NCBI GenBank assembly: GCA_043736295.1
Contig: JAYTCW010000164.1
Coordinates: 223 to 64,222 of the forward strand
Origin: Planctomycetota bacterium
GTDB taxonomy: Bacteria; Planctomycetota; Planctomycetia; Planctomycetales; Planctomycetaceae
Length of the DNA: 64,000 nt
Direction of reading: 5' to 3'
A program made the translations under genes and the position numbers. The notes beneath the pieces are model-generated. The model was not told where the DNA came from, did no database searches, and worked only from the letters and a program-made list of their open reading frames with translations. This document shows positions 1,346-36,236 of the stretch, piece by piece (position 1 is the stretch's first letter; every line of letters starts with the position of its first letter).

Positions 1346-3220
1346 GTGTCGTTACTGGTGTCGTTGGTGTCCGCTTCTTCTCCCGCTGTCTCTGTGCAGT
1401 CTGCTGCTCCATCAGGTGCCTCGCCGCCGTCGAACTGGGTGCTGCTGCGCCGGTTGATTGCGATTGGGTTCGAGTACCGGCGCGGGTGCTTCGAGATGAT
1501 CGCGATGCACCTGGGGCTGGTGACGCTGACCTTGAGCGGGCTGGGACTGACGGGGCTGGGGATTGATTACATTCGGTCGGTGATTGAGCCGGGGAGTGCG
1601 GCTCCGACATGGCCGCTGGGACTTCGGCCTCCCACAAGCTGGACTCCCATGCAGGTCGTCATCGCCATCGCAGCGGCGGTGATGGCCTCCGGGTTGTTGA
1701 CGGCACTACTGAGGTACTTCGCAGCTTTGGCAGCGGCACGGCTCACGCAGCGGATCTTGTTGCGGTTGCGGTCCGATGTGTATGCCAAGCTGCAGCGGCT
1801 CAACTTTCACTTCTACGATTCCGGCGAGAGCAGCTCGATCATCAACCGGGCGGCGGGAGACGTGAACTCAGTCCGCAGCTTCGTCGACGGGGTCATCATT
1901 AAGGTGCTGTCGGTGCTGCTGACCCTGGCGGTGTATCTGGCATACATGCTGCGCGTACACGTGCCGCTGACGGTGGTGTGCCTGTGTACGACTCCGCTGC
2001 TGTGGTTTGGGGCCAGCCGGTTCTCTCGCATTGTGCAGCCCGCGTATCGGCGGGCGAGCGAACTCGGCGATGCGATGGTACGGACGCTGGTCGAGAACTT
2101 GCAGGGCATCCACGTCGTCAAGGGTTTCGCCCGCGAGCCCGAGGAGATCGAACGCTTCCGCCAGGCCAACGACGCCATTCAACACGAGAAGGAGTCGATC
2201 TTCCGCCTACTCAGTACGTGGCAGCCGACCATCGGGTTCCTCACCCAGATCAACATGCTGATCTTGATCGGGTATGGCGGCTGGCTGGTGATCCAGGGGG
2301 AGATGGCACTCGGATCGGGTCTGTTCGTGTTCGCCAATCTGCTGCATGAGTTCGCCAATCAAGTCGGTCAAATCACAGCTGTGGCGAACACGATCCAGGC
2401 GAGTCTGGTGGGGGCGCAGCGGGTGTTCGAGGTACTCGATTCGCCGGTGCAGATCGTCAGCCCGCCGGACGCGGTGACCTTGCCACGGGCGAGGGGAGAG
2501 ATCGCCTTCGACCATGTCACGTTCGGGTACAAGCCCGAGAGTCCCGTACTACGCGATGTGACGTTCACGATCCAACCGGGGGAGTGCCTGGCCATTACGG
2601 GGGAAACCGGTTCGGGAAAAAGCACGCTGCTGAGCCTCATCATGCGGTTCTACGATGCAGATCAAGGAGCGGTTCGGGTCGATGGCCACGAAGTGCGGGC
2701 ACTGGAGATCGACTCGCTGCGGCGGAACATCGGGCTGGTGTTTCAGGAAGCGTTCCTGTTCAGTCACACGGTGGCGGCGAACATCGCCTTCGGTCGACCC
2801 GATGCCACGGATGAGGAGATCGCAAGAGCTGCGCGAATCGCGTGTGCGGATCGGTTCGTGGAAGAGATGCCGGAGCGGTACGACACCGTTGTGGGTGAAC
2901 ACGGAGCGAACCTCTCGGGCGGCCAGCGGCAACGCCTCTCGATCGCGCGAGCTCTACTCCTCGACCCGCCGATCTTGCTGTTCGATGACGCGACCGCCTC
3001 CGTCGACCCCGAGACCGAACACGAAATCCGCGAGGCCCTCGAATCCGCCATGCAGGGCCGGACCTCGATCGTCGTCTCGAATCGGCTGAGTACGCTCCGC
3101 CGCGCGGACCGAGTGTTGATCCTGGAGAACGGCCGCATCTCCGCTATCGGGACACACGTGGACCTGATGCAGACGAGTCCGTATTACCGCCGTTTGGCCG
3201 AACTGCAATTCGGGTTGTGA
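1346..3220 (+). CDS. ABC exporter, fused permease + ATPase (MsbA/ABCB-like half transporter), without a C39 peptidase domain
   Basis: Hydrophobic N-terminal half, then Walker A GETGSGKST, signature LSGGQRQRLSIARAL and Walker B ILLFDDATASVD. The ORF starts at GTG 1346; the exact start is uncertain. Confidence 0.9.
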   Translation: MSLLVSLVSASSPAVSVQSAAPSGASPPSNWVLLRRLIAIGFEYRRGCFEMIAMHLGLVTLTLSGLGLTGLGIDYIRSVIEPGSAAPTWPLGLRPPTSWTPMQVVIAIAAAVMASGLLTALLRYFAALAAARLTQRILLRLRSDVYAKLQRLNFHFYDSGESSSIINRAAGDVNSVRSFVDGVIIKVLSVLLTLAVYLAYMLRVHVPLTVVCLCTTPLLWFGASRFSRIVQPAYRRASELGDAMVRTLVENLQGIHVVKGFAREPEEIERFRQANDAIQHEKESIFRLLSTWQPTIGFLTQINMLILIGYGGWLVIQGEMALGSGLFVFANLLHEFANQVGQITAVANTIQASLVGAQRVFEVLDSPVQIVSPPDAVTLPRARGEIAFDHVTFGYKPESPVLRDVTFTIQPGECLAITGETGSGKSTLLSLIMRFYDADQGAVRVDGHEVRALEIDSLRRNIGLVFQEAFLFSHTVAANIAFGRPDATDEEIARAARIACADRFVEEMPERYDTVVGEHGANLSGGQRQRLSIARALLLDPPILLFDDATASVDPETEHEIREALESAMQGRTSIVVSNRLSTLRRADRVLILENGRISAIGTHVDLMQTSPYYRRLAELQFGL

Positions 3221-3324
3221 GCGGCACTGCGCTAGCCGCCGGTTCCCCGGGCCGTTGTTCGTTGGGGAACTCTGCGTTCTGGTGGCACAGCGGTTTGAAG
3301 AACCGGCGGCTCGCGCCTTGCCGC

Positions 3325-5457
3325 TCATTGCGGGTCGACCAGTGCGCGGGTCCAGTCTCGCACGGCACTGGTTAGTTGCTGGGCAATCGTGCGGCGTCCA
3401 CTGAGTGGGGCGGCGCTGGCTTGTTGACCGGCGAAGACGTTAGAAGAAGCGGCGGCATCGAGCTTCGCTCGTAGCAGGAATCGCGGTTCGCTGAGCTTCA
3501 CGCCCTCGTCATCAGCGTCCGCCGAACTGGCGACCACATCGACCTCGCCGCCATGCACTGCGGATAACGCCGGGTGAGGTAATCGCGTCGAAGCTCGTGG
3601 TTCGAGAGACAGACTCGCCGAAGCCGCTGGGCCGGTCCCTCGAATACGCAGGTCAGCTGAGTGGATGTCGGCGACCGAGAATGCTTCCAGGTCGCGCTGG
3701 TCGACACTGGCGAGCACCTCTTTACGAGCATCATCACCAATCACCAGCAATTCGGTTCCCTCCTTGAGATAGTTCCCGATCTGCTGGTCGAGTCGGCGGG
3801 CCAGCACGCGCCCCGCCACGGGGGCCTTGATCGACAGAGCGTCGGTCCGGAGGTACGCCTCGGCGAGCTGTTCCTTGAGGGCTTGCTGATTGCGAAGTTC
3901 GATCTGTGCCAGCGCCAGTTCCTTGCGGTTGACCTGGCCAATTCGCTTCGCTTCGGATTGCTGGATGGCCAGTTCAAGGTCCGTGACGCGGGCGTTGAGT
4001 TCCTGGTTGTGCAGGATGACCAGCTCGTCACCGGCCTCGACGGTCTGCCCGTTGGTCACGAGGATCTCTTGAACGAATCCCGCGGAGGAGACTCGGACGA
4101 CTTCGAGGTCCGCATAGTCGACGATCCCCGGTGCGTGTCGTTGAAACGGACTCGGCAAGTGAAACACCAATGCTCCCACACACACCGCTGTCAGCGATCC
4201 CAGCAGCACCGCGCGACTGGCACTCCACCGATCGCGACGCCAGCGCGTCACCAGCGAGACCAGCAAATCAATCACCGGCTTCACGTACCACAGCAGTATC
4301 GCCCCGATCGCAATCGCCAAACCCGCCCCGCGAAACATCACAGCGGCCCCGGCGAGCAGCGAGGCCGAGACGGTGACTCGCCACATGGAGGAGAGCAGGG
4401 CGTAGCTGCGAATGACAGCTCCCTGGAACCCCGAGGGGACGGGAACGGCGCGTAGCTCTCCGTAGAAGAACCGAGCATAGCGGGACTGGAGCCAGCGGCT
4501 GGCGGTCGTGCTCAGGTTCGAGATATCGAGCAGGTCTTCGAGAATGAAATAGCCGTCGAACCGCATCAGCGGATTGATGTTGAAGATCAATGTCGTCAGG
4601 CTCGCGCTGACGACGATGTTGTGCAGCAAATGCCGCGCAAAGGGGGTCGTCGCTTGCGTCCAGCAGAGCGCCGCGATGGCGGCAACCGTCAGCTCGACCA
4701 GGATTCCTCCAGCGGCCACGTGCATCCGCTGCCAGCGCGAGCGAAAGCCAAGCGATGAGGTCACATCGACATAGGCCATCGGGGCGAACAGGACGAAGAC
4801 GACCCCCATCTCGGTCACGCGGCCCCCGTGAGAGCGGCAGGCCAGCCCGTGTCCGATCTCGTGGACCACTTTGAGCGCGACCCAGACGATCGCCAGCAGC
4901 AGCCAGTTGTGAGAGGAGAAGACCTGCCGCGAGTCGGCCCAGAACGCTTCGGCATGTCCCGCCAGGACGACACCCGCCGCGATCCACAGAGCGGCCATTG
5001 CCATGATCGCCGGGCCGGTGAAGAGCCAGCGAGTCCACGGTAGTAACAGGTCTAGTAGTCGCTCGGGGCGGAGCAGCGGGAGCTTCATCCAGAACGGATT
5101 GAACAGCGAACTGAGCGAGGCGAGCTTCGTAGTCGTGGACTCGATCGAGCCCTCGGTCGGAGTCGCGAGTCGGGTCTCGACGAGCCACAGGCAGATACTC
5201 GTTGCTTCCGACTCCGAGAACGCTTCGTGGCCAAGTGTCCGCGATGCAATCGTCACGGCCTCCGCCAGCGAGGTCCGCCCATCGAGCAGCGAGATTAACA
5301 CATATTCGGCTCGCCCCACTCGGTAAAACCGGACAGCGACCGGGTCTTCGAGTTGATATGACACCCCATCGACGGTCGGCACCGGTCGGACGATCACATC
5401 GTCCCGGAGTTTGAGCCGGGTCCGGTCGAGTTCACGGGTGCTGAGGTTGAGTTGCAT
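3325..5457 (-). CDS. PqqD-like N-domain / M50 site-2-protease membrane domain / HlyD-type adaptor fusion protein
   Basis: N-terminus FYRVGRAEYVLISLLDGRTSLAEAV...ICLWLVETRLA resembles PqqD/RRE. HEIGH plus NINPLMRFDGY are the two S2P/M50 motifs, set within multiple TM segments. The C-terminal half has split lipoyl-like halves around a coiled coil (GFVQEILVTNGQTVEAGDELV ... IKAPVAGRVLARR), as in membrane-fusion proteins. Confidence 0.8.
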   Translation of the reverse strand: MQLNLSTRELDRTRLKLRDDVIVRPVPTVDGVSYQLEDPVAVRFYRVGRAEYVLISLLDGRTSLAEAVTIASRTLGHEAFSESEATSICLWLVETRLATPTEGSIESTTTKLASLSSLFNPFWMKLPLLRPERLLDLLLPWTRWLFTGPAIMAMAALWIAAGVVLAGHAEAFWADSRQVFSSHNWLLLAIVWVALKVVHEIGHGLACRSHGGRVTEMGVVFVLFAPMAYVDVTSSLGFRSRWQRMHVAAGGILVELTVAAIAALCWTQATTPFARHLLHNIVVSASLTTLIFNINPLMRFDGYFILEDLLDISNLSTTASRWLQSRYARFFYGELRAVPVPSGFQGAVIRSYALLSSMWRVTVSASLLAGAAVMFRGAGLAIAIGAILLWYVKPVIDLLVSLVTRWRRDRWSASRAVLLGSLTAVCVGALVFHLPSPFQRHAPGIVDYADLEVVRVSSAGFVQEILVTNGQTVEAGDELVILHNQELNARVTDLELAIQQSEAKRIGQVNRKELALAQIELRNQQALKEQLAEAYLRTDALSIKAPVAGRVLARRLDQQIGNYLKEGTELLVIGDDARKEVLASVDQRDLEAFSVADIHSADLRIRGTGPAASASLSLEPRASTRLPHPALSAVHGGEVDVVASSADADDEGVKLSEPRFLLRAKLDAAASSNVFAGQQASAAPLSGRRTIAQQLTSAVRDWTRALVDPQ

Positions 5458-5520
5458 AGGGGTAGGGCTAATTCACCACGGAGACACGGAGGAGCCATGC
5501 CTGCCACACGAGATACTCTG

Positions 5521-5622
5521 ATCTGTGCTGATCTGTGAAATCTGTATACGGCCACTTCCACATGAACTGCTGAGTGCAAAGTTCAGTGAATTGGTACACA
5601 GATTTCACAGATTGACACAGAT
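5521..5622. promoter_or_regulatory. Inverted array of phased ATCTGTG heptads in an AT-rich intercistronic spacer (operator array or RNA hairpin)
   Basis: Left arm ATCTGTGctgATCTGTGaaATCTGT (5521-5545); right arm ACAGATttCACAGATtgaCACAGAT (5598-5622). 22 of 25 positions are complementary and the heptads are spaced 9-10 nt. By hand count, 5521-5640 has 47/120 G+C, against about 63% in the flanking CDS. Confidence 0.6.
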
Positions 5623-5667
5623 TTATTTTTCTGATGGATTGAGTCTTCACGGAGGTTACGCCAAGCA

Positions 5668-7545
5668 TCACCAGCCAATCCAGAATCGCACTTGATCGAT
5701 GGCCTTGTGGAACAGGTTCCAGCCCAAGGGGTGTTTCGCGGTCTCGATTTTGGCCCGCCCCTTCATGCCAGGGCGGAGGAGGCTGAACTCGTTGGCGAAC
5801 TTCACTTCGGCGACGAAGACGTAGTCCTCGTCGACGAGTTCTGATCGCGGATGAATCCGCTCAATCGTCCCCATCCAAGTCCGGTCGGGCAGGGCGTTGA
5901 GGACCGCCTCGACCGACTGGCCCACCACGACATGCCCGATGTCCTCTTCGGGGATGCTGATCTCCAGCACCATCTCTTCCAACGGGGCGATCTCGAACAG
6001 CGTCTGTCCCGTGGTGAGTGGGGCTCCCTCGGCTTTGCGGAGGTCGCCGCTGATGATGACTCCAGCAACTGGGCTGCGGATTTCGAGTTGCTCGCTGCGC
6101 TGGCGGAGGACGGTCGCCTTGGCGGTCATGCGGGCCATTTCGAGTCGCGACACCTGGGCCGCGTTGATCTCTTTCTCCGCTAGGTGCCCGTCGCGCTCTT
6201 TCGCCGCCCGGTCGACCTCAGCTGTGGCTCCGGAGAGTTCCCAGCGGATCTCCTCGCCGTCGAGGCGGGCGAGGACTTGCCCAGCTGTGACCTCATCACC
6301 GGGCTCGACATCAGCGTGCAGCAGTCGGGCGTCGAAGGGGGCAGCGATGTACCGCAGCGACACCGGGTGGACCTCGCATCCGCCCCGGACCGAGTAGGGG
6401 AACGGGACGCACAGACCCGCCGCCAGCAAGAGGCATCCCAGCGCGATCAGTTGGCCCTTGCGTTGCCGCATTGATTGGGAGACATGGCTCCAGGTTCTGG
6501 CGATCCGCCCTTGCTCCCCACGCCGCAAAGTGCGAAGTGCTGCACCCATCAGCGGGGCCGCAGCCTGCATAAAGCCCGCCGTGGACGCAACTTGATCCGT
6601 GTTGCTGACGATGGCGATCCAGGCCCCGACGGTCTCTCCCTCATGAGTTCTCAGTGGCACCGAGACGACCGACTCGGCATTCCAGCGCAGGGCCAACTGC
6701 TTATGAGTCGCCAGCGAATGCCGTGTCGCTCCCGCAGGAGGAGGCCAGATTCCGATCTCGCCGCGTAACAGACACTCATCGAGAGTTGCTTCAAGAAACG
6801 AGTCACGCTTCTCGGGTGAGACGTTCCCTTCACTGCGACTGACGGCGGTGAGGCGACAGCCGGGCTGGCCGGGGCGAACCAGCGCCACGGCCATCTGTTG
6901 CACTCTCAGATGACGAGATGCCTCATCGCACAGCACCTGTCCAGCGGTCGTGACGTCCGTCGCAGATTGGACTCGCGCCGCGAGATCGACAATCGCGGCT
7001 GTGGCGGACACCTCGCGATCGAGAGTGATCGCCCCGGCTCGAAGATCGAACATCGCCACAGTCGACACCGCGAGTTCGACCACAGTGGTCAGCACATCGG
7101 GCGGAGCGGAGGGAGCCAAGAAGAGCGCGAGCAGCACCTCCGGCAGTGGGCCCGTGGTGATCGGCACACTCACCAGCAACTGAGTCGGAGGACGGCCAAT
7201 TCGACCGGCTCGTGTCTGGCGGTCCTGACAGGCCGCCATGGAAAACTCGCGAAAGCTTTTCGTCGTTAGCTCAGGTAATCCGGCAATCGGATGCAGGATT
7301 CCGTCGAGAGCCACTTGACCCTGCGCATCGGGGCGACCAATCACGAGAATGTCGGCCCGTACCGTGTCGGTCAGGACTCTCGCGATTCGTGCAATCAGGT
7401 CAGCACGACCCGTAGACTGGGATGCCGCCTCACTGAAGCGGGCTTGCAGTGTCCGCAGTCTCTCCGTGTCGGGGCGTCGCTGTACGGCTGCGGCCTCGGG
7501 TGGAGTGCTGGTAGGCACGGGAGTGACCGGCGACGAAGAACTCAT
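5668..7545 (-). CDS. GAF-domain-containing HlyD-family adaptor (cytoplasmic sensor region + TM + membrane-fusion-protein domain)
   Basis: About 360 N-terminal residues show two GAF-like modules, followed by the TM segment LIALGCLLLAAGLCVPFPY. The MFP part includes LLHADVEPGDEVTAGQVLARLDG ... IRSPVAGVIISGDL ... RPGMKGRAKI. The start ATG overlaps the upstream stop (ATGA at 7542-7545). Confidence 0.75.
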   Translation of the reverse strand: MSSSSPVTPVPTSTPPEAAAVQRRPDTERLRTLQARFSEAASQSTGRADLIARIARVLTDTVRADILVIGRPDAQGQVALDGILHPIAGLPELTTKSFREFSMAACQDRQTRAGRIGRPPTQLLVSVPITTGPLPEVLLALFLAPSAPPDVLTTVVELAVSTVAMFDLRAGAITLDREVSATAAIVDLAARVQSATDVTTAGQVLCDEASRHLRVQQMAVALVRPGQPGCRLTAVSRSEGNVSPEKRDSFLEATLDECLLRGEIGIWPPPAGATRHSLATHKQLALRWNAESVVSVPLRTHEGETVGAWIAIVSNTDQVASTAGFMQAAAPLMGAALRTLRRGEQGRIARTWSHVSQSMRQRKGQLIALGCLLLAAGLCVPFPYSVRGGCEVHPVSLRYIAAPFDARLLHADVEPGDEVTAGQVLARLDGEEIRWELSGATAEVDRAAKERDGHLAEKEINAAQVSRLEMARMTAKATVLRQRSEQLEIRSPVAGVIISGDLRKAEGAPLTTGQTLFEIAPLEEMVLEISIPEEDIGHVVVGQSVEAVLNALPDRTWMGTIERIHPRSELVDEDYVFVAEVKFANEFSLLRPGMKGRAKIETAKHPLGWNLFHKAIDQVRFWIGW

Positions 7546-8468
7546 CGAACCTTCCCGACTTCCAATCGGCTGGTCTTGATCGGTGGCTTAGCCGTAGGTG
7601 CGGGAGCGGTACCAGCCTTGGGCGGGCCAGCGGTCTCGGCCCTCGGCAGTTCACCATTCACCACCAGCAGGCACTTCTCGCCGCTGCGATAGATGTTCTT
7701 CGAGTTCGGAACTCGCACCTTGATGAGAATCGTTCCGCTCTGAGCATCGATGACGGGAGCGATGTAGTCGACGACTCCCTTGGCGGGGAGACGTGTCTCT
7801 CCGACGAGCATGCTGACCTCGACGTTGGCCTTGAGTTCGTGGCTCAACACGGAGGGCACCGAGTAGATCGCGATCAGCGGGTCGAGTTGAACGACGGTCG
7901 CGATCACCGGATCGTTCACCGAGACGAACTCACCCACATCCCGGTGGACCTTGACGACGACTCCATCAATCGGCGAACGCACATTGCGTTGTTCGAGCTG
8001 GACCTTGATTCGGTCGTACTCTAAGCCTCGAATGAGCAGCTCCTCCTGCACGGCCAACAACTGGGCTTCGGAGACTTCCTTCTCGACCAGACAGCGGTCG
8101 AACTCTTCCTGTGTGGCATGCTTGCGTTCGAGCAACATCTTGAGTTTCTCGCCGCGTTCGGTCCGCAGGCGAATGTCTGCCTGTGCAGAGTTCACTCGCC
8201 CCTTGGCGTTACGACTCCGATCGGCGATCTCGAGCGTCGCATTGAGCAGAGTCTGGTCGAGGGTGCCGAGAATCTGATCCTTTTGGACTCGATCCCCCTC
8301 CTTGACGTTGATCAGGGAGACGATCCCGATATCGGTCGAGGCAACATCAAGATCGCGAAACGGCTCCGTGAAGCCTTCGATCTCGGCTGCCGAGACTGAG
8401 CCCGCCAGCAGGCAAGCAGCGAGTGCCGCGCAGAAACTCATTCGATTCTTGGTCGGTGTCATGTTCAT
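7542..8468 (-). CDS. HlyD/membrane-fusion-protein family periplasmic adaptor with signal/anchor sequence
   Basis: I chose the start at MNMTPTKNRMSFCAALAACLLAGSVSA (ATG 8468-8466), which overlaps the SecA-like stop by ATGA. Lipoyl-like halves are VSLINVKEGDRVQKDQILGTLD and VRSPIDGVVVKVHRDVGEFV, around a coiled coil. Confidence 0.8.
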   Translation of the reverse strand: MNMTPTKNRMSFCAALAACLLAGSVSAAEIEGFTEPFRDLDVASTDIGIVSLINVKEGDRVQKDQILGTLDQTLLNATLEIADRSRNAKGRVNSAQADIRLRTERGEKLKMLLERKHATQEEFDRCLVEKEVSEAQLLAVQEELLIRGLEYDRIKVQLEQRNVRSPIDGVVVKVHRDVGEFVSVNDPVIATVVQLDPLIAIYSVPSVLSHELKANVEVSMLVGETRLPAKGVVDYIAPVIDAQSGTILIKVRVPNSKNIYRSGEKCLLVVNGELPRAETAGPPKAGTAPAPTAKPPIKTSRLEVGKVR

Positions 8469-10381
8469 TCTCCGAGGAATATGGCGAGGATGGTGTCTCG
8501 CTGCAGGTCTTGGTTCAACAGGCTGTTTCGTAGTTGCGAGGCTTGGCGTTCGGTTTCGGCCTGGAGTTGTCTCAGTGCCGATGTGAGGTCCGTTCGGCAC
8601 TCCTGATCGTGCCCTGCGAGCTTGATGATGCGTGCGGACAGAGTCGGTCCGTGTTCGATAAGGAGATCGTCCTCCGCGGAGACGAACATCTGGGCCGATC
8701 CCGGTTGACCTTGCCGGGCCCCGCGTCCGATCAGCTGTCGGTCGACTCGATGCGAGTCGTAGGGCTCAGAGCAGATGACATGCAGACCGCCCACCGCCAG
8801 AGTTGCGGGGGAGGGCTTGATGTCGGTCCCGCGTCCGGCCATGTGAGTGGCGATGGTGATGGCGCGGAGCTGGCCAGCGGCGGAGACGATTTCGGCTTCG
8901 TCTTTGTCTTGTCGCCCGTTGAGTAGTTCGAAGGGGAGCTTTCGCTCTCGCAGGAGTGCGGCCAATCTCTCGCTATTCGCGATGGAGCGCGTGCCCACCA
9001 GGATCGGCTGCCCGGTCAGGTGCCGAGAGGCGACCTCTTCGGCAATCGCATTCCATTTGGCCTGAGCCGTCGTGAAAAACCGCGTCGTCAAGATGTCTCG
9101 CTGAGTCGGAAGTCGCAGCGGGATTGGCTGGACATCGACTCGGTAGATCGACTGGAACTCACTCTCACCACCGGTCGCGGTTCCAGTCATCCCGCTGAGG
9201 GTGCGGTAGAGCCGCAGGAATCGCTGGCGAGTAATCCGAGCGAGCGAACTCGTGTCCGGTGTGATCCGCTGGCCCTCTTTAGCCAGGACGGCTTGGTGCA
9301 ATCCATCACTCCAGGTGCGGTCGGGCATGATGCGACCGGTGGAGCCGTCAACGATCTGCACCTCGTCGTCGTGGACGATGTACTCACGGTCACGCTGGAA
9401 GAGCAGGCGGGCCTTGAGCGCCGCTTCGACATACAGTGCCCAGGGACGGATGAGCACTTGAATGGGGATTTGATCGACCGCCGAGTGAGTCTTCTCGCGT
9501 CCTTGATGTGTCAGACGTACCAGCCCGCGTGACGGGTCGAACTCGTAGTCGAGCTGCGGTGCGAATTCATTCGCCAGTCGGAGGGCCACGCGATGTGCTT
9601 CCGCATCGGGAGCATCTCCCGGGGCCGCCTCGCTGATCAGCAACGGCGAGATGGCGTCGTCGAGCATGACGTGATCGGCTTCGTCGACTATTGCGAAGTG
9701 GAGTCCCCGCTGCATCGTGACACGCGGAGAGAGACCGCCCGTCAGTCGCTGCCGCACCAGTACTCCGAGAGCTGCGGCTTTCACTTGCCGCAGCGATATT
9801 TGGTCGCGGAGGTAGTCGAACCCAAACTCGAAGCCATTCCCGTAGACCACATCGCAATCGTACAGAGGCCGCTTGACCTCCGCCGGAGCTTGCTCAGGGA
9901 GGACTGCAACCGTGAGCCCCAGCATTTCAAAGACTGGACGCAGCTCTTCGCAGTCACGCTCGGCGAGGTAGCTGTTCGAGGTCATCACATGGACGCCGCG
10001 ACCGCTCAGGGCATGGACAAACGCGGGCGCCGCACCGGTCAGGGTCTTGCCTTCGCCGGTGGCCATTTCGGCAATGGCTCCTTGGGCCAAGACGAGTCCC
10101 CCCAGGAGTTGAGGATCGTGCAGCGTCTTCCCGGTGACACGGCGGATCGCTTCGAGTGTGAAGGCGAAACCCGATTCGAGAACCTCGGGAGACTGCATAT
10201 CTCCGCCGGACTCGACGTTCTCGCGGAGTTGGATGGCATAGCCTCGAAGTTGAGTATCACTCAATGAAGTGAGTCGCGAGGCAACTTCGCGGATGCGCGG
10301 AATCAGCGCAGCCAGATTCTCCGATCGCCCAGGGCGTCGTCTGACATGCGATCGGTCTGGGGTTTGTTGCTCCAGAACCAC
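8465..10381 (-). CDS. Truncated SecA-like ATPase (motor domains + preprotein-binding domain, no wing/two-helix-finger/C-terminal tail)
   Basis: Collinear with SecA: LGGLVLAQGAIAEMATGEGKTL (Walker A), VHVMTSNSYLAERD, LHFAIVDEADHVMLDDAISPLLIS, LSGMTGTA, GQPILVGTRSI, ITIATHMAGRGTDI and GGLHVICSEPYDSHRVDRQLIGRGARQGQPGS. The protein ends about 90 aa after the last motor motif, at 638 aa total. GTG start at 10381. Confidence 0.85.
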   Translation of the reverse strand: MVLEQQTPDRSHVRRRPGRSENLAALIPRIREVASRLTSLSDTQLRGYAIQLRENVESGGDMQSPEVLESGFAFTLEAIRRVTGKTLHDPQLLGGLVLAQGAIAEMATGEGKTLTGAAPAFVHALSGRGVHVMTSNSYLAERDCEELRPVFEMLGLTVAVLPEQAPAEVKRPLYDCDVVYGNGFEFGFDYLRDQISLRQVKAAALGVLVRQRLTGGLSPRVTMQRGLHFAIVDEADHVMLDDAISPLLISEAAPGDAPDAEAHRVALRLANEFAPQLDYEFDPSRGLVRLTHQGREKTHSAVDQIPIQVLIRPWALYVEAALKARLLFQRDREYIVHDDEVQIVDGSTGRIMPDRTWSDGLHQAVLAKEGQRITPDTSSLARITRQRFLRLYRTLSGMTGTATGGESEFQSIYRVDVQPIPLRLPTQRDILTTRFFTTAQAKWNAIAEEVASRHLTGQPILVGTRSIANSERLAALLRERKLPFELLNGRQDKDEAEIVSAAGQLRAITIATHMAGRGTDIKPSPATLAVGGLHVICSEPYDSHRVDRQLIGRGARQGQPGSAQMFVSAEDDLLIEHGPTLSARIIKLAGHDQECRTDLTSALRQLQAETERQASQLRNSLLNQDLQRDTILAIFLGE

Positions 10382-10506
10382 TCCAGCGACTCCGATCGGT
10401 ACTGCTGTGCCTCGACCGGCCTCCCTGCCTCATGACGGTACGACATCTCCGCCTTTACCTTCAGAATCCACTCCGGGAGTCTGGTGTCTCACTTCTTCCT
10501 TTCGTC

Positions 10507-10533
10507 TCTGTGGGACCACTTACACAGATTTAT
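10507..10533. promoter_or_regulatory. TCTGTG-N10-CACAGA palindrome sharing a 12-mer with the 5.5-kb heptad array
   Basis: TCTGTG (10507-10512) and CACAGA (10523-10528) lie in the 211-nt spacer between the TolC-like and SecA-like genes. ACACAGATTTAT at 10522-10533 is identical to 5615-5626. Confidence 0.45.
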
Positions 10534-10592
10534 CCGGGGCATGGGTCAGTTCCTCCCGGAACGGGGTGCCGGACTTTCCGAAGGTTCCGGTT

Positions 10593-12944
10593 TTACCAAC
10601 GTAGCCAGGAGCGACTCTTTGTGGGAGTCTCGCTGGTGCGCTGATCCTTCTTCTCTGGGGCCTTGGCCTTGGTGATCCCGGTCGACCGCGCGGGAACTTT
10701 GGGCTTGGTCAGCCCGGCCTGGGGAGGAATCAGTGTCTCCGCAGGAACCAGTGTCGGTTCGGGGTCAGAGGGAACCTCGACTTCGTATTTCAGCGGGTTC
10801 TCGAAAATCAACAGCGTGCCCATCGATCGCCGAACCCGAATCAACGCGATCGAGTACGACACCTGCGACTGGACGAACTCGCCTTCGGCATCGGCCAGCC
10901 GCTGCTGGGCATCGAGCAGATCTTCCAGCAGCAGGGTCGTCCCTCGGTCTGCACCGGGGAGCACCTTCCAGCGATCTTCGAGGTAACTCGACTCCGTCTC
11001 GGCGGCGATCAGTGCTTGGAATTTGCCGAGCATCTCGCGGTAGGAGGTCTCCGCCTCGCGGACAGAGAGTTCGACATCGGTTAGCCCGGTCTCCACAACC
11101 GTGCGGAAGTCGTAGACCGCTTTCGTCAATTCCCACTGCCGACGATCCTGGCGAGCTTTGGCCGCCCGGTTTCCGAGCGGCATCTCGAACTGCGTTCCCA
11201 CGGTGTAGCCCGGGCGACCGTCGGTATACTGGCTGCCGAGCGACTTTAGGATGTCATGATCGCCTTCCAGTCCCGCGACATAGGTGTTTAGCACCAGGTC
11301 GAGCTTGGGCAGGAGTTCGTTTTGAGACACACCGAGTCTCACTCCGGCCGCACGCAAGTCATGAACCGATTGCGAGATATCTGGGCGATACTGCAACGCA
11401 TTTTGAAGTGACCCCGCTAGCGACAAGGGCAGATGGTCGGTCCGCGGTGATTCGATGGGGACGAGTTCTGTCACTGAAAGATCGAGGTACTGAGGGGAGT
11501 TCACCAGCAGCCGCAAACGGGACTCGGCATTGCGAATCGCTGCTTGCGCTCGCACGATCTCCGAGCGACGACTGGCCACGGCTGCCTTCGCCCGATTCAC
11601 CTGTCGTTGCAAGGCGTCGATCTCTTCGCGACCACCAAGTGTTTCCAGGATGTACTGCGCACTGTCATAGACCTTGCGCCGCTGGAGATAGATTGCTCGC
11701 GAGCGGTAGAGGTCCCAGTACGTCTCGGTGACCTTCACTAAGTGATCTTGTAGCTCTTCCTGAACCACGTCAAACGACCTGTTGAGTTCGACTTGTGCCA
11801 GCACGATCCGTGCCTGGTTGTAGGCGACTCCTGATCCGTTCAGCAGTGGTTGGGTGTAGTTCAATTGGAGCCGACTGGTCCCTTGCGGGGCGGGAACGAA
11901 GAACTTGGAGTTGTTGTCCTGCCAACCCACCTTCTGCGAGATATCGAACTCGCCACCGTATTGATTCTTCCTACGGAGACCCGCTTGGACGGTGGCAATC
12001 TGTTCGACAAAACGGTTGGAATTATTCCCGGTCGTCAGCGTGTTCCCGACGGGGTCATTGAGATCACTCCATTTCGAATCGACAAACGTGGTCCAGTCGA
12101 AGGCAGCATTCTCCGCACTGAGAATGCTGTTGTTAATGTCGGGCTGGGTGCGGATTCCTAGAATCTGGGGAGAGTACTGCAGTGCCCCCGTCACGAGGGT
12201 GTCCACATCCACCGGGACTGTGGACTCGCTACGCCGGATCGGATTCGGCAATTCGTTGATCCACCACGGAACGTATCCGACCGGCAGCTGTGTCAGGTCA
12301 CCCGCTCGAACGTCCATGTCTTCTTCGACGGGAGACCGAGCCGCCCGGTCCTCGAACTCTGCTGTCCAGGGCAGTGCATCGGGATCTTGATTAGAGGGCA
12401 AGTACGGAGGGGCCAGTCCGGCAGCCTCCGACATCTCACTCGGCAGGTCACGGATCATGACCGGGACCACGCGAGCGTCAATCACTTCCCGAGGTGGCAA
12501 GGCCATCCGTTCCGGTTCTTGGTGACGGTCCCTCTTCTCAGTGGGGGGCAAACTCCGCTCGACTTTTTCGCTGGGCGGCGGCGGATCGTCCTCGTCGAGG
12601 CGTTCCACAACCGGCAGTTCCACTCGCTGGTCGTCCGAATCACTCGCCTGGGCGGGAAGTATTTCCGAGGTCTGCCTCGGGCGAACCGGAGGTCGCTTGG
12701 GAGCTGCACCGGTCCCCGGATACCCCAATCCGAGGGGGCGATTGGACGTGGCAGTCTTCCGACTGTGAGGTGTCGGAGCAGGAGCAGGTGCGTCGACCTC
12801 ATCCAAATCATCAAATACAGGTGCAAGTAACTGAATCACCGGCAGTTCTGGTGCCTGCGCTGGCTCACCCATCACGTGGGCTGCCATCCAGGCAGACGAC
12901 GTGATCGCGGCAGCAGTTGCAATCCATGCGTGGTGGCGTTCCAT
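10593..12944 (-). CDS. TolC-family outer-membrane efflux protein with a long Pro-rich N-terminal extension and a basic C-terminal tail
   Basis: Signal-like N-terminus MERHHAWIATAAAITSSAWMAAHVMG. About 200 aa are P/E/D-rich, followed by two OEP-type repeats (LQYSPQILGIRTQPD..., LQNALQYRPDISQSVHDLRAAGVRLGVSQNELLPKLDL...). Confidence 0.8.
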   Translation of the reverse strand: MERHHAWIATAAAITSSAWMAAHVMGEPAQAPELPVIQLLAPVFDDLDEVDAPAPAPTPHSRKTATSNRPLGLGYPGTGAAPKRPPVRPRQTSEILPAQASDSDDQRVELPVVERLDEDDPPPPSEKVERSLPPTEKRDRHQEPERMALPPREVIDARVVPVMIRDLPSEMSEAAGLAPPYLPSNQDPDALPWTAEFEDRAARSPVEEDMDVRAGDLTQLPVGYVPWWINELPNPIRRSESTVPVDVDTLVTGALQYSPQILGIRTQPDINNSILSAENAAFDWTTFVDSKWSDLNDPVGNTLTTGNNSNRFVEQIATVQAGLRRKNQYGGEFDISQKVGWQDNNSKFFVPAPQGTSRLQLNYTQPLLNGSGVAYNQARIVLAQVELNRSFDVVQEELQDHLVKVTETYWDLYRSRAIYLQRRKVYDSAQYILETLGGREEIDALQRQVNRAKAAVASRRSEIVRAQAAIRNAESRLRLLVNSPQYLDLSVTELVPIESPRTDHLPLSLAGSLQNALQYRPDISQSVHDLRAAGVRLGVSQNELLPKLDLVLNTYVAGLEGDHDILKSLGSQYTDGRPGYTVGTQFEMPLGNRAAKARQDRRQWELTKAVYDFRTVVETGLTDVELSVREAETSYREMLGKFQALIAAETESSYLEDRWKVLPGADRGTTLLLEDLLDAQQRLADAEGEFVQSQVSYSIALIRVRRSMGTLLIFENPLKYEVEVPSDPEPTLVPAETLIPPQAGLTKPKVPARSTGITKAKAPEKKDQRTSETPTKSRSWLRW

Positions 12945-13224
12945 GCCCGATGTGCCTTCCTTGGCCGGACCTCATCCGTCATCCATTGACGCGAGTTCTC
13001 AACGTTCCGTCCTTAGCTGCATCGACTTGATGATCGTCTGAAACCAGTCTCCGACGAGTCAAATCCTTTTTCAAGCTTTTGGCTGAGTTCGACGGTGTCA
13101 GGACTGTCAGAGTCGATGCGTTACCCATGATCGGGACACTGGGGAGACTCCGCACCGTCGATACAACCGCACCCCTGATACATCCGTTACGACACACAAG
13201 GTCACCCGCATTTGCCTCGCCACC

Positions 13225-31908: not shown

Positions 31909-32198
31909 CGCGTACGTTCCCCGAGGGTTGAAGCTGGAAATCGGACAGGTAAAACACAGCGTAACAGGCTGCGGCGAGACGGTCGACCTCACGCGGATCT
32001 GTAAGTGACGGAGCCTCCCAGTGCGTGTCAATCTTACCTAGTGTGACAAAGCCATCAGACTTGCCTGATGGCCCAGATTGTTCTTGTTTGTTGGTTTCTC
32101 ACGGGTAACATGGGCCACGTGAAGTGGTTTCGGAGAGAGTGTTTGAAATTCTCGCCTGACTGGCTTCGTTCAAGTTTTTTCGTGAAGACACGGAGGTT

Positions 32199-36182: not shown

Positions 36183-36207
36183 GATTCGCTCTCGTTGGTT
36201 GCGTTCA

Positions 36208-36236
36208 AAGCCCCGGGGTTGCAACCCCGGGGCTTT
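36208..36236. terminator. Palindromic hairpin AAAGCCCCGGGGTTGCAACCCCGGGGCTTT between the co-directional DUF1553 and DUF1501 genes (attenuator/terminator candidate)
   Basis: Perfect palindrome located between the stop at 36249 and the start at 36182 on the minus strand. Confidence 0.5.

What the first reader, a model, noticed from the sequence alone, without database searches (positions are those of the whole stretch)
3325..12944. Operon joining a TolC-like channel, a truncated SecA-like ATPase and three different HlyD-type adaptors: candidate undescribed envelope-spanning export machine
Seen: five co-directional minus-strand genes run from 12944 to 3325. They are a TolC-like OMP (10593-12944), a SecA-like ATPase (8465-10381), an HlyD adaptor (7542-8468), a GAF-HlyD (5668-7545) and a PqqD-like/M50/HlyD fusion (3325-5457). 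The SecA-like/HlyD and HlyD/GAF-HlyD junctions are 4-nt ATGA stop/start overlaps (8465-8468 and 7542-7545), which suggests translational coupling. Established: tripartite exporters (T1SS, MacAB- and RND-type pumps) combine one membrane-fusion protein with an ABC, RND or MFS energiser and TolC. SecA works with SecYEG, and I know of no described SecA-MFP-TolC assembly. Inference: the only ATPase inside this operon is the SecA paralogue. It may therefore energise a HlyD/TolC conduit or thread substrate into it. The divergently encoded giant adhesin, which lacks a Sec signal peptide, is the obvious cargo candidate. The ABC exporter at 1346-3220 is convergent, so whether it belongs to the system is open.
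Basis: partly seen in the sequence, partly recalled or inferred. Interest (0 to 1): 0.85.

Follow-up and report, generated by a model that had tools for sequence, protein, structure and literature searches.

The report
SecA-like-powered giant adhesin export module
This planctomycete locus encodes a TolC-like channel, a wing-less SecA-type ATPase and three different periplasmic adaptors; the gene set was described by comparative genomics in 2015 but never tested, and here it proves to sit almost always beside a giant surface protein with its own N- and C-terminal tags, its likely cargo.

Summary
Five co-directional minus-strand genes (OEP, truncated SecA, HlyD, GAF-HlyD, PqqD-like/M50/HlyD) lie at the stated coordinates, and both ATGA overlaps are real.

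The claim that the assembly is undescribed is wrong. Kamneva, Poudel and Ward (PLoS One 2015, PMC4452313) reported this module, a secondary SecA_DEAD protein with HlyD, GAF-HlyD, M50-HlyD and sometimes OEP. They proposed the same idea: the SecA-like protein replaces the ABC ATPase. No experimental follow-up turned up in the searched library.

New here:
- The ABC exporter is not part of the system (0 of 33 fully flanked loci).
- The conserved neighbour is the giant protein (14 of 15 SecA-containing loci, 19 of 20 OEP-containing loci), sometimes in one operon with the module.
- These giants share a LEPR-XLL-like N-terminal leader, usually DUF4347, and a hydrophobic C-terminal domain with no Pfam-A or NCBIfam model (3,550 representative clusters).
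- DUF4347 giants with RTX C-termini lack both tags; two of the four (tandem genes in L157) sit 2.5 kb from an ABC fragment.
- M50 catalytic motifs and SecA ATPase motifs are conserved. The N-terminal domain folds like a RiPP leader-recognition element.
- c-di-GMP regulators travel with the cargo gene.

Verdict: a new member of a known but uncharacterised kind, most likely an ABC-independent, type-I-like export machine for giant adhesins.

The parts
10593..12944 (-). TolC-like outer-membrane factor (783 aa) with a ~240-aa Pro/charge-rich N-terminal extension
   Evidence: Pfam OEP E 2e-19 in two stretches. TIGR01844/TIGR01845 match well below their cut-offs. An OEP gene is present in 20 of 33 fully flanked related loci.
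8465..10381 (-). Truncated SecA-like ATPase (638 aa): NBD1, PPXD, NBD2 and the start of the scaffold helix. It lacks the wing domain, two-helix finger and C-terminal tail.
   Evidence: SecA_DEAD, SecA_PP_bind and P-loop_SecA hits, no SecA_SW. It scores below every NCBIfam SecA/SecA2 cut-off. It aligns to B. subtilis SecA residues 20-583. All 33 relatives are 632-720 aa, end at the same point and keep the Walker A, DExD, GTA, AGRGTDI and GRxxRQG motifs.
7542..8468 (-). Short periplasmic adaptor (308 aa) with an N-terminal signal or anchor. Its start overlaps the SecA-like stop (ATGA).
   Evidence: RND_mfp TIGR01730 at 116.8 bits, above its 94.9 cut-off; HlyD_3/HlyD_D23. Hydrophobic segment at aa 10-28. 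Overlap read.
5668..7545 (-). GAF-TM-adaptor (625 aa): cytoplasmic N-terminal region with a weak GAF_2 match (aa 195-337), one TM helix (aa 366-384) and a periplasmic HlyD-type domain. Its start overlaps the previous stop (ATGA).
   Evidence: The same family was found next to the short adaptor in 31 of 33 fully flanked loci.
3325..5457 (-). RRE(PqqD-like)-M50-adaptor fusion (710 aa). Leader-recognition-like domain at aa 11-102 (nt 5152-5427); about 8-helix M50 membrane domain at aa 131-433 (nt 4159-5067) with HEIGH at aa 199-203 (nt 4849-4863) and NINPLMRFDG at aa 293-302; periplasmic adaptor at aa 442-707.
   Evidence: Peptidase_M50 above its cut-off. The daptide intramembrane metalloprotease model NF041824 matches at E 7e-45, below its cut-off. 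HExxH and NxNPLMxFDG are invariant in 24 homologues. AF2 model pLDDT 83. Foldseek matches AcrA/MexA/MacA for the C-terminal part and TbiB1, lasso B1, TruD and PqqD for the N-terminal part.
13225..24291 (+). Candidate cargo: 3,688-aa cadherin-like surface protein, transcribed divergently from the OEP gene
   Evidence: DUF4347, 14 Cadherin_3 repeats, Cadherin_4, Big_9 and Laminin_G_3. No RTX motif. A giant gene of this class lies next to the module in 21 of 33 fully flanked loci, in 14 of 15 with SecA-like and in 19 of 20 with OEP.
13471..13503 (+). LEPR-XLL-like N-terminal motif of the giant protein (FEDRVLFSAAP, aa 83-93)
   Evidence: NF012209 at 13.6 bits against a cut-off of 17. The same motif occurs in 37 neighbouring giants. 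Relatives in co-directional operons pass the cut-off with 21.1 and 28.5 bits.
13687..14190 (+). DUF4347 domain (aa 155-322) with invariant His/His/Asp/Cys ('HilSHG', 'DiLxYGCdlA')
   Evidence: Pfam E 1e-50. Alignment A2 gives the invariant residues. PDB 9qpe_G keeps the same motifs.
24034..24288 (+). Conserved C-terminal domain of the giant protein: hydrophobic 'TVGYVVWMLRGGLLITSLLAQVPAWSIVDPL' followed by an acidic tail
   Evidence: A profile finds 3,550 representative clusters, and in all 150 listed hits the match lies at or near the C-end. No Pfam-A or NCBIfam model matches it.
24288..26936 (+). Hybrid histidine kinase (PAS-HisKA-HATPase-REC-Hpt). Its start overlaps the giant gene's stop by 4 nt.
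   Evidence: A kinase with this architecture follows the giant gene in L003, L169, L170 and L172. ORFs matching the window kinase follow it in L068, L097, L109, L110 and L151.
27079..28314 (+). REC-HD-GYP response regulator (putative c-di-GMP phosphodiesterase)
   Evidence: Response_reg plus HD_5/HD. REC-HD-GYP or REC-GGDEF-EAL, and in some loci PilZ, recur beside the cargo gene or module.
1346..3220 (+). MsbA/HlyB-type ABC exporter, convergent. Judged NOT to be part of the system.
   Evidence: ABC_membrane plus ABC_tran. A comparable ABC gene appears near the module only in the window's close relatives and in L003. It is absent from all 33 fully flanked loci.

Best explanation
The locus encodes a dedicated, type-I-like but ABC-independent envelope-spanning machine. 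It exports, and probably anchors, the neighbouring giant cadherin-like protein.

Proposed working (only the anatomy is shown; every step is inferred):
1. Three different membrane-fusion proteins build the periplasmic tunnel that docks onto the TolC-like channel. One is a soluble or anchored adaptor, one has a cytoplasmic GAF sensor and one TM helix, and one is fused to an eight-helix M50 domain.
2. The M50 membrane domain, with the adaptors' TM helices, provides the inner-membrane platform.
3. The wing-less SecA-like protein keeps its ATPase motor and its polypeptide-binding clamp (PPXD) but has lost the parts that couple SecA to SecY. It supplies ATP-driven threading of the unfolded giant polypeptide.
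4. The cargo is recognised through two tags: an N-terminal leader (basic stretch plus LE[DEP]R[IV]L[FLMY]SA) and/or a hydrophobic C-terminal domain with an acidic tail. The cytoplasmic PqqD/RRE-like domain of the M50 fusion is the likely leader receptor. The catalytically intact M50 protease is the likely leader or anchor peptidase.
5. The GAF domain, and the hybrid kinase plus HD-GYP regulator co-transcribed with the cargo, place export or retention under second-messenger (c-di-GMP-type) control. This parallels the Lap adhesin system.
For: Module conservation:
- The same gene order recurs around homologues of the SecA-like protein.
- It also recurs around 80 genome loci fetched with the M50-adaptor alone.
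- In 33 loci with both flanks of at least 9 kb, the counts are: short adaptor 30, second adaptor 31, OEP 20, SecA-like 15, giant 21, ABC 0.
- All-against-all clustering finds no other conserved ATPase or transporter.

Cargo link:
- 14 of 15 SecA-containing loci and 19 of 20 OEP-containing loci also hold a LEPR/DUF4347 giant.
- In the reverse test, loci were fetched by DUF4347 alone. Of 30 with at least 6 kb upstream, 12 hold adaptors, 11 hold M50 and 10 hold SecA-like.
- In L087 the five genes, ending with the giant, are co-directional with gaps of 3, -58, 2 and 9 nt.
- The cultured Stieleria varia has SecA-like, adaptor, adaptor, M50-adaptor and a 6,975-aa DUF4347 protein in a row.

Tag swap:
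- Of 13 module-adjacent giants with a complete C-end, 10 carry the C-terminal domain.
- Complete DUF4347 giants with RTX repeats lack both the leader and that domain; the two tandem L157 genes lie 2.5 kb downstream of an ABC fragment.

Competence of the parts:
- SecA ATPase motifs are conserved and the truncation is uniform.
- M50 HExxH and NxxPxxxxDG are invariant.
- The N-terminal domain matches leader-binding RRE/PqqD structures.
- The adaptor domain matches AcrA, MexA and MacA.

Literature:
- Kamneva et al. 2015 proposed the same module and ATPase substitution.
- Giant Omnitrophota and Actinobacteria proteins carry a fused SecA_DEAD plus PPXD without wing or scaffold, proposed to serve self-export. 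This is a domain-fusion argument for the link.
Against: - There are no experimental data for any member.
- In M. extorquens AM1 only the GAF gene was expressed in exponential phase.
- About half of the M50-adaptor loci have no SecA-like gene within 10 kb. The trio may work without it or share one in trans. L031 and L055 lack it, while the same MAGs have it at L024 and L060.
- No inner-membrane channel is demonstrated. 'M50 as conduit' is a guess.
- In the window the cargo gene is divergent, not in the same operon, and two 210-nt gaps split the five genes.
- A Vibrio giant protein combines LEPR-XLL with RTX, so the N-terminal motif is not exclusive to this system.
- 3 of 13 module-adjacent complete giants lack the C-terminal domain.
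- The Foldseek E-values for the RRE fold are modest (2e-3 to 2e-2).
- The GAF match is below Pfam's threshold.
Confidence: 0.6

Rival explanations
1. Two-step route. The SecA-like protein acts like a mycobacterial SecA2 and feeds the giant protein's N-terminal leader into the housekeeping SecYEG channel. The M50 protease then removes the signal-anchor, as RseP-type signal-peptide peptidases do. The adaptor trio and the TolC-like channel handle only the periplasm-to-surface step.
For: - The protein is a true SecA homologue with an intact motor and PPXD.
- SecA2-only systems use SecYEG (established knowledge; summarised in PMC4452313).
- The cargo N-terminus has a basic stretch followed by a moderately hydrophobic segment.
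- From established knowledge, S2P-type proteases cleave N-in signal-like helices, and MacAB-TolC accepts periplasmic substrates.
Against: - The whole family lacks the helical wing domain and the two-helix finger that insert SecA into SecY.
- No SecY, SecE or SecG paralogue is conserved nearby.
- The leader is not a canonical Sec signal peptide.
- In Omnitrophota the equivalent SecA domains are fused to the cargo itself.
Confidence: 0.2
2. Ordinary type I secretion. The adjacent ABC exporter (1346-3220), one adaptor and the TolC-like protein secrete the giant adhesin. The SecA-like protein is only a cytoplasmic holdase or accessory.
For: - An ABC exporter of the MsbA/HlyB type lies 104 nt from the M50-adaptor gene.
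- L003 also has an ABC exporter near its module.
- From established knowledge, giant adhesins such as LapA and SiiE are classical type I cargo.
Against: - No ABC gene appears in any of the 33 fully flanked loci.
- The window's ABC gene is convergent. It scores 349 bits against the HlyB-type cut-off of 725.
- The cargo has no RTX repeats or type-I C-terminal signal.
- In these data, RTX-type DUF4347 giants are the ones seen with an ABC fragment nearby (L157), and they lack this cargo's tags.
Confidence: 0.08
3. Peptide (RiPP or bacteriocin-like) or small-molecule exporter. The RRE plus M50 unit processes a leader-bearing small peptide that leaves through the adaptors and TolC. The giant gene is merely a neighbour.
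For: - The RRE-like fold matches lasso-peptide, cyanobactin, sactipeptide and PQQ leader-binding domains.
- The M50 domain's best NCBIfam matches are RiPP leader peptidases: daptide at E 7e-45 and YydH/LiaK at E 6e-7.
- JGI names the family 'putative peptide zinc metalloprotease'.
Against: - No conserved small ORF exists in or around the loci.
- No conserved modifying enzyme exists there either.
- The only conserved non-machine neighbour is the giant protein, and it carries a short conserved N-terminal motif that could itself be the 'leader'.
- A PPXD-bearing SecA motor implies a polypeptide substrate.
Confidence: 0.07
4. Signalling or release device rather than transporter. The M50 protease performs regulated intramembrane proteolysis of the giant protein's C-terminal anchor, or of an anti-sigma-like factor. 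This happens under GAF and c-di-GMP control and releases or remodels the adhesin, which is exported by another route.
For: - Catalytic M50 motifs are invariant.
- The cargo has a conserved C-terminal hydrophobic helix with a cytoplasmic-looking acidic tail.
- A GAF domain, a hybrid kinase, HD-GYP or GGDEF-EAL regulators and PilZ genes accompany the system.
- The Lap system offers a precedent for protease-controlled adhesin release (established knowledge).
Against: - It does not explain the conserved TolC-like channel, the three adaptors and a SecA motor.
- From established knowledge, S2P proteases usually cut N-in/C-out helices. The C-terminal anchor would have the opposite orientation.
Confidence: 0.05

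Closest known systems
Conserved 'secondary SecA_DEAD / type-I-related' genomic module of Kamneva, Poudel and Ward 2015 (PLoS One 10:e0129066)
   Same: - The protein set is the same: a SecA_DEAD protein without wing/scaffold, an HlyD-only protein, a GAF+HlyD protein, an M50-like+HlyD protein and an occasional OEP.
- Planctomycetes are among the phyla it was described in.
- The hypothesis is the same: the SecA-like protein substitutes for the ABC ATPase, and M50 is the membrane component.
- The M. extorquens order GAF, M50, SecA, HlyD equals the co-directional arrangement seen here in L087 and L136.
   Different: The paper named no cargo. It did not report the PqqD/RRE-like domain, conservation of the M50 catalytic motif, the LEPR/DUF4347/C-terminal-domain signature of the neighbouring giant, or the c-di-GMP regulators (zero mentions of adhesin, cadherin, cargo or DUF4347).
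Type I secretion systems and tripartite efflux pumps (HlyBD-TolC, LapBCE, MacAB-TolC, TriABC-OpmH)
   Same: - It has a TolC-family channel and AcrA/MacA-like adaptors.
- The giant repeat adhesin cargo has no Sec signal, as with LapA or SiiE.
- Hetero-adaptor pumps exist (TriA/TriB, PDB 6vej, appeared among the hits).
- A c-di-GMP regulatory context recalls LapD/LapG.
   Different: - No ABC, RND or MFS energiser is conserved.
- There are three distinct adaptors, two of them fused to cytoplasmic or membrane modules.
- The cargo lacks RTX repeats and a type-I C-terminal signal. It carries a hydrophobic C-terminal domain instead.
Accessory SecA2 systems of Actinobacteria and Firmicutes
   Same: It is a second, non-housekeeping SecA paralogue dedicated to a subset of cargo. 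Mycobacterial SecA2 also has a reduced wing domain (established knowledge; one search places the clades as relatives).
   Different: - It scores far below all SecA2 model cut-offs.
- It loses the entire region after the first scaffold helix, including the two-helix finger.
- It is encoded with TolC and adaptor genes in diderm bacteria, not with SecY2/Asp genes.
RiPP leader peptidases of the M50 family with RRE domains (daptide protease NF041824; YydH/LiaK NF058609) and PqqD-type RiPP recognition elements
   Same: It has the same HExxH intramembrane protease family and an N-terminal leader-binding-type winged-helix domain.
   Different: - It is fused to a periplasmic adaptor.
- It scores below the family cut-offs (153.7 against 300).
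- No precursor peptide or modifying enzymes are present.
- The presumed 'leader' sits on a multi-thousand-residue protein.
Giant Omnitrophota/Actinobacteria proteins with fused SecA_DEAD domains (West-Roberts et al. 2023, bioRxiv 10.1101/2023.11.21.568195)
   Same: A SecA motor plus preprotein-binding domain without scaffold or wing is associated with a giant surface protein that has C-terminal membrane anchors. The authors proposed that it exports the giant protein itself.
   Different: There the motor is fused in cis, and no TolC, adaptor or M50 module is reported. Here the motor is a separate 638-aa protein in a tripartite-pump-like operon.

Membership tests
Secondary SecA_DEAD / type-I-related module (Kamneva et al. 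2015) | SecA_DEAD protein lacking all or most of the SecA_SW (wing/scaffold) domain | tested here: met
   SecA_DEAD, SecA_PP_bind and P-loop_SecA hits with no SecA_SW. The protein ends within the first scaffold helix, as do 33 relatives.
Secondary SecA_DEAD / type-I-related module (Kamneva et al. 2015) | Neighbouring proteins of three clusters: HlyD-only, GAF+HlyD, M50-like+HlyD | tested here: met
   GAF is only a sub-threshold Pfam match (21.9 against 28.6 bits). M50 is above its threshold.
Secondary SecA_DEAD / type-I-related module (Kamneva et al. 2015) | The protein is secondary, meaning a canonical full-length SecA exists in the same genome | not testable with these tools
   Only the 64-kb window is available and no second SecA lies in it. 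Indirect evidence: some genomes or loci carry two copies of the truncated form (L084; Stieleria marina L047 and L051), and it fails the SecA equivalog cut-offs.
Type I secretion system (ABC-MFP-OMF) | Dedicated ABC transporter as energiser and inner-membrane channel | tested here: not met
   An ABC gene is adjacent in the window, but it is convergent and absent from all 33 fully flanked related loci. It scores 349 bits against a cut-off of 725 for TIGR01846.
Type I secretion system (ABC-MFP-OMF) | Membrane-fusion protein and TolC-family outer-membrane factor | tested here: met
   Pfam and NCBIfam hits. Structural match to AcrA, MexA and MacA.
Type I secretion system (ABC-MFP-OMF) | Cargo with a C-terminal secretion signal, usually preceded by RTX GGxGxD repeats | tested here: not met
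   The 3,688-aa protein has no GGxGxD. Its C-end is a hydrophobic domain plus an acidic tail. RTX-type DUF4347 relatives exist but lack this cargo's tags.
Housekeeping SecA (TIGR00963 / NF009538) | Full domain set including scaffold, wing and two-helix finger, with a score above the equivalog cut-off | tested here: not met
   543 bits against 800 and 541 against 814. The alignment to B. subtilis SecA stops at about residue 583-611 of 841.
Accessory SecA2 (TIGR03714, TIGR04221, TIGR04397, NF012136) | Score above the family cut-off; SecY2/Asp or Gram-positive context | tested here: not met
   444 against 930, 416 against 725, 534 against 1085 and 386 against 1100. The context is TolC and adaptors.
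Peptidase M50 / site-2 protease | HExxH in one TM helix and NxxPxxxxDG in another; Pfam score above gathering | tested here: met
   31.4 bits against 27.2. H199, E200, H203 and N293...D301-G302 are invariant in 24 homologues. Activity itself is untested.
PqqD / RiPP recognition element | Three-stranded sheet plus three-helix winged-helix fold that binds a leader peptide | tested here: inconclusive
   No Pfam hit and no PDB sequence hit. The AF2 model has pLDDT above 90 for aa 11-100. Its best small-domain Foldseek matches are TbiB1 (TMt 0.69), lasso B1 and PqqD 5sxy (TMt 0.66, rmsd 2.9), plus TruD, TbtB, CteB and SuiB, but E-values are only 2e-3 to 2e-2. Peptide binding is untested.
LEPR-XLL domain proteins (NCBIfam NF012209) | N-terminal LEPRxLL motif scoring at least 17 bits | tested here: inconclusive
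   The window protein scores 13.6 bits, E 0.04. Giants next to the module in L115 and L109 score 21.1 and 28.5 bits. The motif is aligned across 27 of these neighbouring giants.

The most novel reading that the evidence does not exclude
The SecA-like / M50-adaptor / GAF-adaptor / adaptor / TolC set is a distinct, ABC-independent protein secretion system of diderm bacteria. It is specialised for giant surface proteins marked by a LEPR-XLL-type N-terminal leader and a so far unmodelled hydrophobic C-terminal domain (thousands of family members). A wing-less SecA serves as the motor, an RRE-M50 fusion serves as leader receptor and peptidase, and c-di-GMP-linked control governs export or retention. 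This would explain how many planctomycetal giant proteins reach the cell surface.
Probability: 0.45. Interest if true: 0.85.

Novelty: new member of a known kind. Interest (0 to 1): 0.58.

Why it matters
Every textbook tripartite exporter uses an ABC, RND or MFS energiser. A SecA-derived motor working with membrane-fusion proteins and TolC would be a further class of secretion machine.

The module has sat in the literature since 2015 without a cargo or an experiment. The 2021 Chemical Reviews survey of tripartite and type I systems does not mention it in the part held in the library, and neither does the 2025 review of Planctomycetota.

Tying the module to a definable cargo class turns it into a testable system. 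The class has an N-terminal leader, usually DUF4347, and a C-terminal domain with about 3,550 representative clusters.

It also bears on how planctomycetes and relatives export their many giant proteins. A parallel exists in Omnitrophota, where the same kind of truncated SecA is fused to the giant proteins themselves.

Tried and rejected
- ABC exporter as a system component: rejected. It is present only in the window's near relatives and L003, and in none of 33 fully flanked loci.
- RiPP precursor: no conserved small ORF of 30-119 aa in 170 loci, and no conserved modifying enzyme.
- Word-indexed protein search with the cargo's C-terminal 153 aa: only 4 fragments came back, so it was uninformative. 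The exhaustive profile search was needed.
- PDB sequence searches: the M50 and N-terminal parts gave nothing beyond adaptor hits. The DUF4347 profile gave spurious de-novo TIM-barrel hits plus a marginal match to 9qpe_G.
- Foldseek on the whole 710-aa model returned only adaptor structures. A separate model of aa 1-135 was needed to test the PqqD-like claim.
- Promoter and terminator scan of 3000-13400: not above shuffled expectation.
- Rfam: no match in the window.
- Literature searches for follow-ups found none besides Kamneva 2015 and the Omnitrophota preprint.
- Presence of a full-length secA in this genome could not be checked.

Full report
**1. Observation**

The ORF list and domain scans confirm five co-directional minus-strand genes:
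- OEP/TolC-like, 10593-12944, 783 aa.
- SecA-like, 8465-10381, 638 aa.
- A short HlyD-type adaptor, 7542-8468.
- An adaptor with a long cytoplasmic N-terminal region and a weak GAF_2 match, 5668-7545.
- A 710-aa fusion of an N-terminal domain, Peptidase_M50 and an HlyD-type adaptor, 3325-5457.

Both ATGA overlaps were read directly from the sequence. Two gaps of about 210 nt (10382-10592 and 5458-5667) interrupt the row, so a single transcript is not established. The promoter and terminator scan was uninformative. The rest of the window carries typical planctomycete genes such as PSCyt2/PSD1 and DUF1501.

**2. Prior description**

A full-text search found Kamneva, Poudel and Ward 2015 (PMC4452313).
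- They reported 'secondary SecA_DEAD domain proteins' that lack all or most of the wing/scaffold domain.
- They sit in a conserved neighbourhood with three protein clusters: HlyD-only, GAF+HlyD and M50-like+HlyD, sometimes with OEP.
- The authors proposed that the SecA_DEAD protein supplies the ATPase activity of a type-I-like system and that the M50 protein supplies the membrane part.

The paper names no cargo. I found no experimental follow-up. The large 2021 review of tripartite and type I systems does not mention the module in the part held in the library, and neither does the 2025 Planctomycetota review.

**3. Membership and conservation**

- The 120 best homologues of the SecA-like protein are all 578-685 aa, apart from two short fragments (P0025, P0027), and share its domain set.
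- Four homologues of about 47-50% identity, chosen for long contigs, gave these neighbourhoods: one with the full layout (OEP, SecA-like, three adaptors including M50, L003); one with the same layout but the M50 protein split and unannotated (L002); one where the genes upstream of SecA-like have no Pfam annotation, though weak OEP matches were found later (L004); and one with only OEP and SecA-like (L001).
- To avoid flooding by housekeeping SecA, I scanned one genome per species with an alignment of the M50-adaptor. At least 578 relatives were found and 80 loci returned. Most are Planctomycetota, but Chthoniobacteraceae, Arenicella, Beggiatoa, Thiotrichales, Ca. Venteria and Desulfobulbus also appear.
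- I annotated six-frame ORFs with the window's proteins. In the 33 loci with at least 9 kb on both sides, the short adaptor is present in 30, the second adaptor in 31, OEP in 20, SecA-like in 15 and a comparable ABC exporter in none.
- All-against-all clustering shows no further conserved family except a sensor-kinase-related cluster. The ABC exporter is therefore not part of the system, and no alternative energiser is conserved.

About half of the trio loci lack a SecA-like gene within 10 kb. In two such cases (L031, L055) the same MAG has a SecA-containing module elsewhere (L024, L060). L001 shows an OEP plus SecA-like pair without the trio. The parts can evidently be scattered.

**4. The parts**

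*SecA-like protein*
- It aligns to B. subtilis SecA residues 20-583.
- Thirty-three relatives all stop within the first scaffold helix. They keep Walker A (TGEGKT), DExD, GTA, AGRGTDI and the arginine-finger region.
- It fails every NCBIfam SecA and SecA2 cut-off.
- It is therefore a motor plus polypeptide clamp that has lost the wing domain and the two-helix finger, the parts that couple SecA to SecY. The domain assignment rests on established knowledge.

*M50 fusion*
- HExxH and NxNPLMxFDG are invariant in 24 homologues of 37-88% identity. The protease is probably active.
- The AF2 model (pLDDT 83) shows an N-terminal alpha/beta domain, about eight membrane helices and a C-terminal adaptor that matches AcrA, MexA and MacA.
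- Modelled alone, the N-terminal domain best matches leader-peptide-binding RRE domains: TbiB1 with its leader, lasso B1, TruD, PqqD, TbtB, CteB and SuiB. TM-scores are 0.65-0.70 on the small targets, but E-values are modest.
- The M50 domain's nearest curated families are RiPP leader peptidases.

*Other adaptors*
- The GAF-adaptor has one TM helix between its cytoplasmic region and its periplasmic region.
- The short adaptor has a signal-like N-terminus.

**5. The cargo**

The one conserved non-machine neighbour is a giant protein.
- It is present in 21 of the 33 fully flanked loci, in 14 of 15 with SecA-like and in 19 of 20 with OEP.
- Three arrangements recur:
  - The giant is divergent from OEP, SecA-like and the trio, as in the window.
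  - SecA-like, trio and OEP precede the giant.
  - GAF-adaptor, M50-adaptor, SecA-like, short adaptor and giant are all co-directional. In L087 the gaps are 3, -58, 2 and 9 nt. M. extorquens has the same module order.
- The cultured Stieleria varia has SecA-like, adaptor, adaptor, M50-adaptor and a 6,975-aa DUF4347 protein in a row.
- In a reverse test, 80 metagenome loci were fetched by DUF4347 alone. Of 30 with at least 6 kb upstream, 12 hold adaptors, 11 hold M50, 10 hold SecA-like and 2 hold an ABC.

**6. A cargo signature**

*N-terminal leader*
- The neighbouring giants share an N-terminal motif, L-E-[DEPS]-R-[IVL]-[LM]-[FLMY]-[SD]-A. It was found in 37 ORFs and is FEDRVLFSAAP in the window.
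- It is preceded by a short basic stretch where the start is unambiguous.
- It corresponds to NCBIfam's LEPR-XLL domain. The window protein scores below the cut-off, while relatives score above it.
- Most of these giants then have DUF4347.

*C-terminal domain*
- Those whose C-terminus lies inside a locus mostly end with a conserved hydrophobic domain, 'T[VA]GY[VI]xWx[LIM]RGG...S..[LV]...P.W...DP[LI]', followed by an acidic tail.
- Overall 14 of 24 complete giants carry it, and 10 of 13 that are module-adjacent.
- A profile of this domain finds 3,550 representative clusters (1,215 at E of 1e-10 or better). In all 150 listed hits the match lies at or near the C-end, on proteins of up to 4,705 aa.
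- Of 47 long representatives, 26 also have the leader and 31 have DUF4347.
- Neither Pfam-A nor NCBIfam matches the domain.
- Giants chosen only by this domain again sit next to the module or its OEP in two of four look-ups.

*Tag swap*
- The complete DUF4347 giants that lack the domain include four with RTX repeats and a type-I-style C-end.
- Two of these lie 2.5 kb downstream of an ABC fragment, and all four start directly with DUF4347 without the leader.
- In this admittedly small sample, the leader and the C-terminal domain travel with the SecA-like/M50 module, and RTX travels with ABC.
- One counter-example for the leader comes from the literature: a Vibrio protein of about 8,000 aa with LEPR-XLL and RTX.

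**7. Regulation**

- In the window the giant gene's stop overlaps the start of a hybrid histidine kinase (24288-26936), which is followed by a REC-HD-GYP regulator (27079-28314).
- The same kinase follows the giant gene in many loci. REC-HD-GYP or REC-GGDEF-EAL regulators and PilZ genes recur.
- Together with the GAF-adaptor, this suggests second-messenger control. The comparison with LapD/LapG control of LapA is an analogy only.

**8. Mechanism**

The best-supported reading is an ABC-independent, type-I-like machine dedicated to the giant protein.
- The three adaptors and the TolC-like protein form the conduit.
- The M50 fusion is the inner-membrane platform, leader receptor and peptidase.
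- The truncated SecA is the motor.
- GAF and c-di-GMP inputs gate export or retention.

Shown: gene conservation, motif conservation, fold similarities, and the cargo association with its tag swap.

Inferred: every physical interaction, the identity of the inner-membrane pore, which end of the cargo enters first, and what the M50 cleaves.

The N-in orientation expected of the leader fits S2P-type cleavage better than the C-terminal anchor does (established knowledge). The tag-swap logic, however, does not tell the two tags apart.

An independent line of support comes from Omnitrophota and Actinobacteria. Their giant proteins carry fused SecA_DEAD plus PPXD domains without wing or scaffold, located after C-terminal membrane anchors and proposed to serve self-export.

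The main rival keeps SecYEG as the inner-membrane channel. Classical type I secretion through the nearby ABC, a RiPP exporter, and a pure signalling protease are less likely (see the rival explanations).

**9. Verdict**

The finding is real and biologically interesting, but it is not undescribed. It is a new member of the module reported in 2015. What this analysis adds is:
- exclusion of the ABC exporter;
- evidence that the protease and the motor are catalytically competent;
- the RRE-like domain;
- a defined cargo class with a previously unmodelled C-terminal domain.

Interest is moderate to high because the system remains experimentally untouched and is now directly testable.

Noticed in passing
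window 24034-24288 (aa 3604-3688 of the giant protein); also L003, L008, L028, L068, L081, L089, L097, L110, L151: A conserved C-terminal domain ('TVGYVxWxLRGG...P.W..DPLP' plus an acidic tail) has no Pfam-A or NCBIfam model. It is found in 3,550 representative clusters (50% identity). In all 150 listed hits the match lies at or near the C-end, on proteins of up to 4,705 aa. It looks like an undescribed C-terminal sorting or anchor signal.
   Followed up: yes
window 24288-26936 and 27079-28314: A hybrid histidine kinase (PAS-HisKA-HATPase-REC-Hpt) starts 4 nt inside the giant gene's stop and is followed by a REC-HD-GYP regulator. The kinase plus an HD-GYP or GGDEF-EAL regulator follows giants of this class in several loci (for example L169, L170, L172). 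PilZ genes sit beside the SecA-like gene in L001 and L002 and about 7.5 kb downstream of the giant gene in L170. This suggests c-di-GMP control.
   Followed up: partly
window 13687-14190 (DUF4347, aa 155-322): DUF4347 has invariant His, His, Asp and Cys in 'HilSHG' and 'DiLxYGCdlA'. The pattern is reminiscent of a His/Cys catalytic dyad. The same motifs are kept in PDB 9qpe chain G, a 201-aa 'DUF4347 domain-containing protein'. It may be related to P. aeruginosa PA0256, a DUF4347 protein reported as a putative T6SS toxin in PMC8262886. The domain's function is unknown.
   Followed up: partly
window 5521-5622 (gap between the GAF-adaptor and M50-adaptor genes) and 10523-10531: An inverted repeat with 29-nt arms (86% complementary, 44 nt apart) is built from three ATCTGTG heptads per arm. 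One further AAATCTGTG copy lies in the OEP/SecA-like gap. That makes 3 exact copies in the window against 0.34 expected. It is a possible operator, attenuator or small mobile element. No Rfam family matches.
   Followed up: partly
L157 4040-9424 and 9857-17848; L152 9989-14461; L161 381-6056: A second flavour of DUF4347 giant protein has RTX GGxGxD repeats and a type-I-style C-end. It starts directly with DUF4347 and has no LEPR-like leader. In L157, two such genes lie in tandem 2.5 kb downstream of an ABC-transporter fragment.
   Followed up: partly
L084 4752-6869 and 12509-14566; Stieleria marina L047 and L051; Mariniblastus L055 and L060: Some loci carry two truncated SecA genes flanking one module, and some genomes carry two complete modules, each with its own giant gene. 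This suggests one machine per cargo and repeated duplication.
   Followed up: no
window 12225-12944 (aa 1-240 of the OEP): The TolC-like protein has a ~240-aa N-terminal extension rich in Pro and charged residues, with no domain match. OEP homologues in related loci vary from about 600 to about 1,070 aa.
   Followed up: no
window 28375-32031, 34857-36239, 36249-38660: Typical planctomycete gene content: a DUF7133/HEAT/cytochrome c protein, and a PSCyt2-PSD1 protein (DUF1549/DUF1553) adjacent to a DUF1501 protein. This supports a Planctomycetota (Pirellulales-like) origin. The closest named genome match is a Planctomycetota MAG (L005, 90% identity for the M50-adaptor).
   Followed up: no
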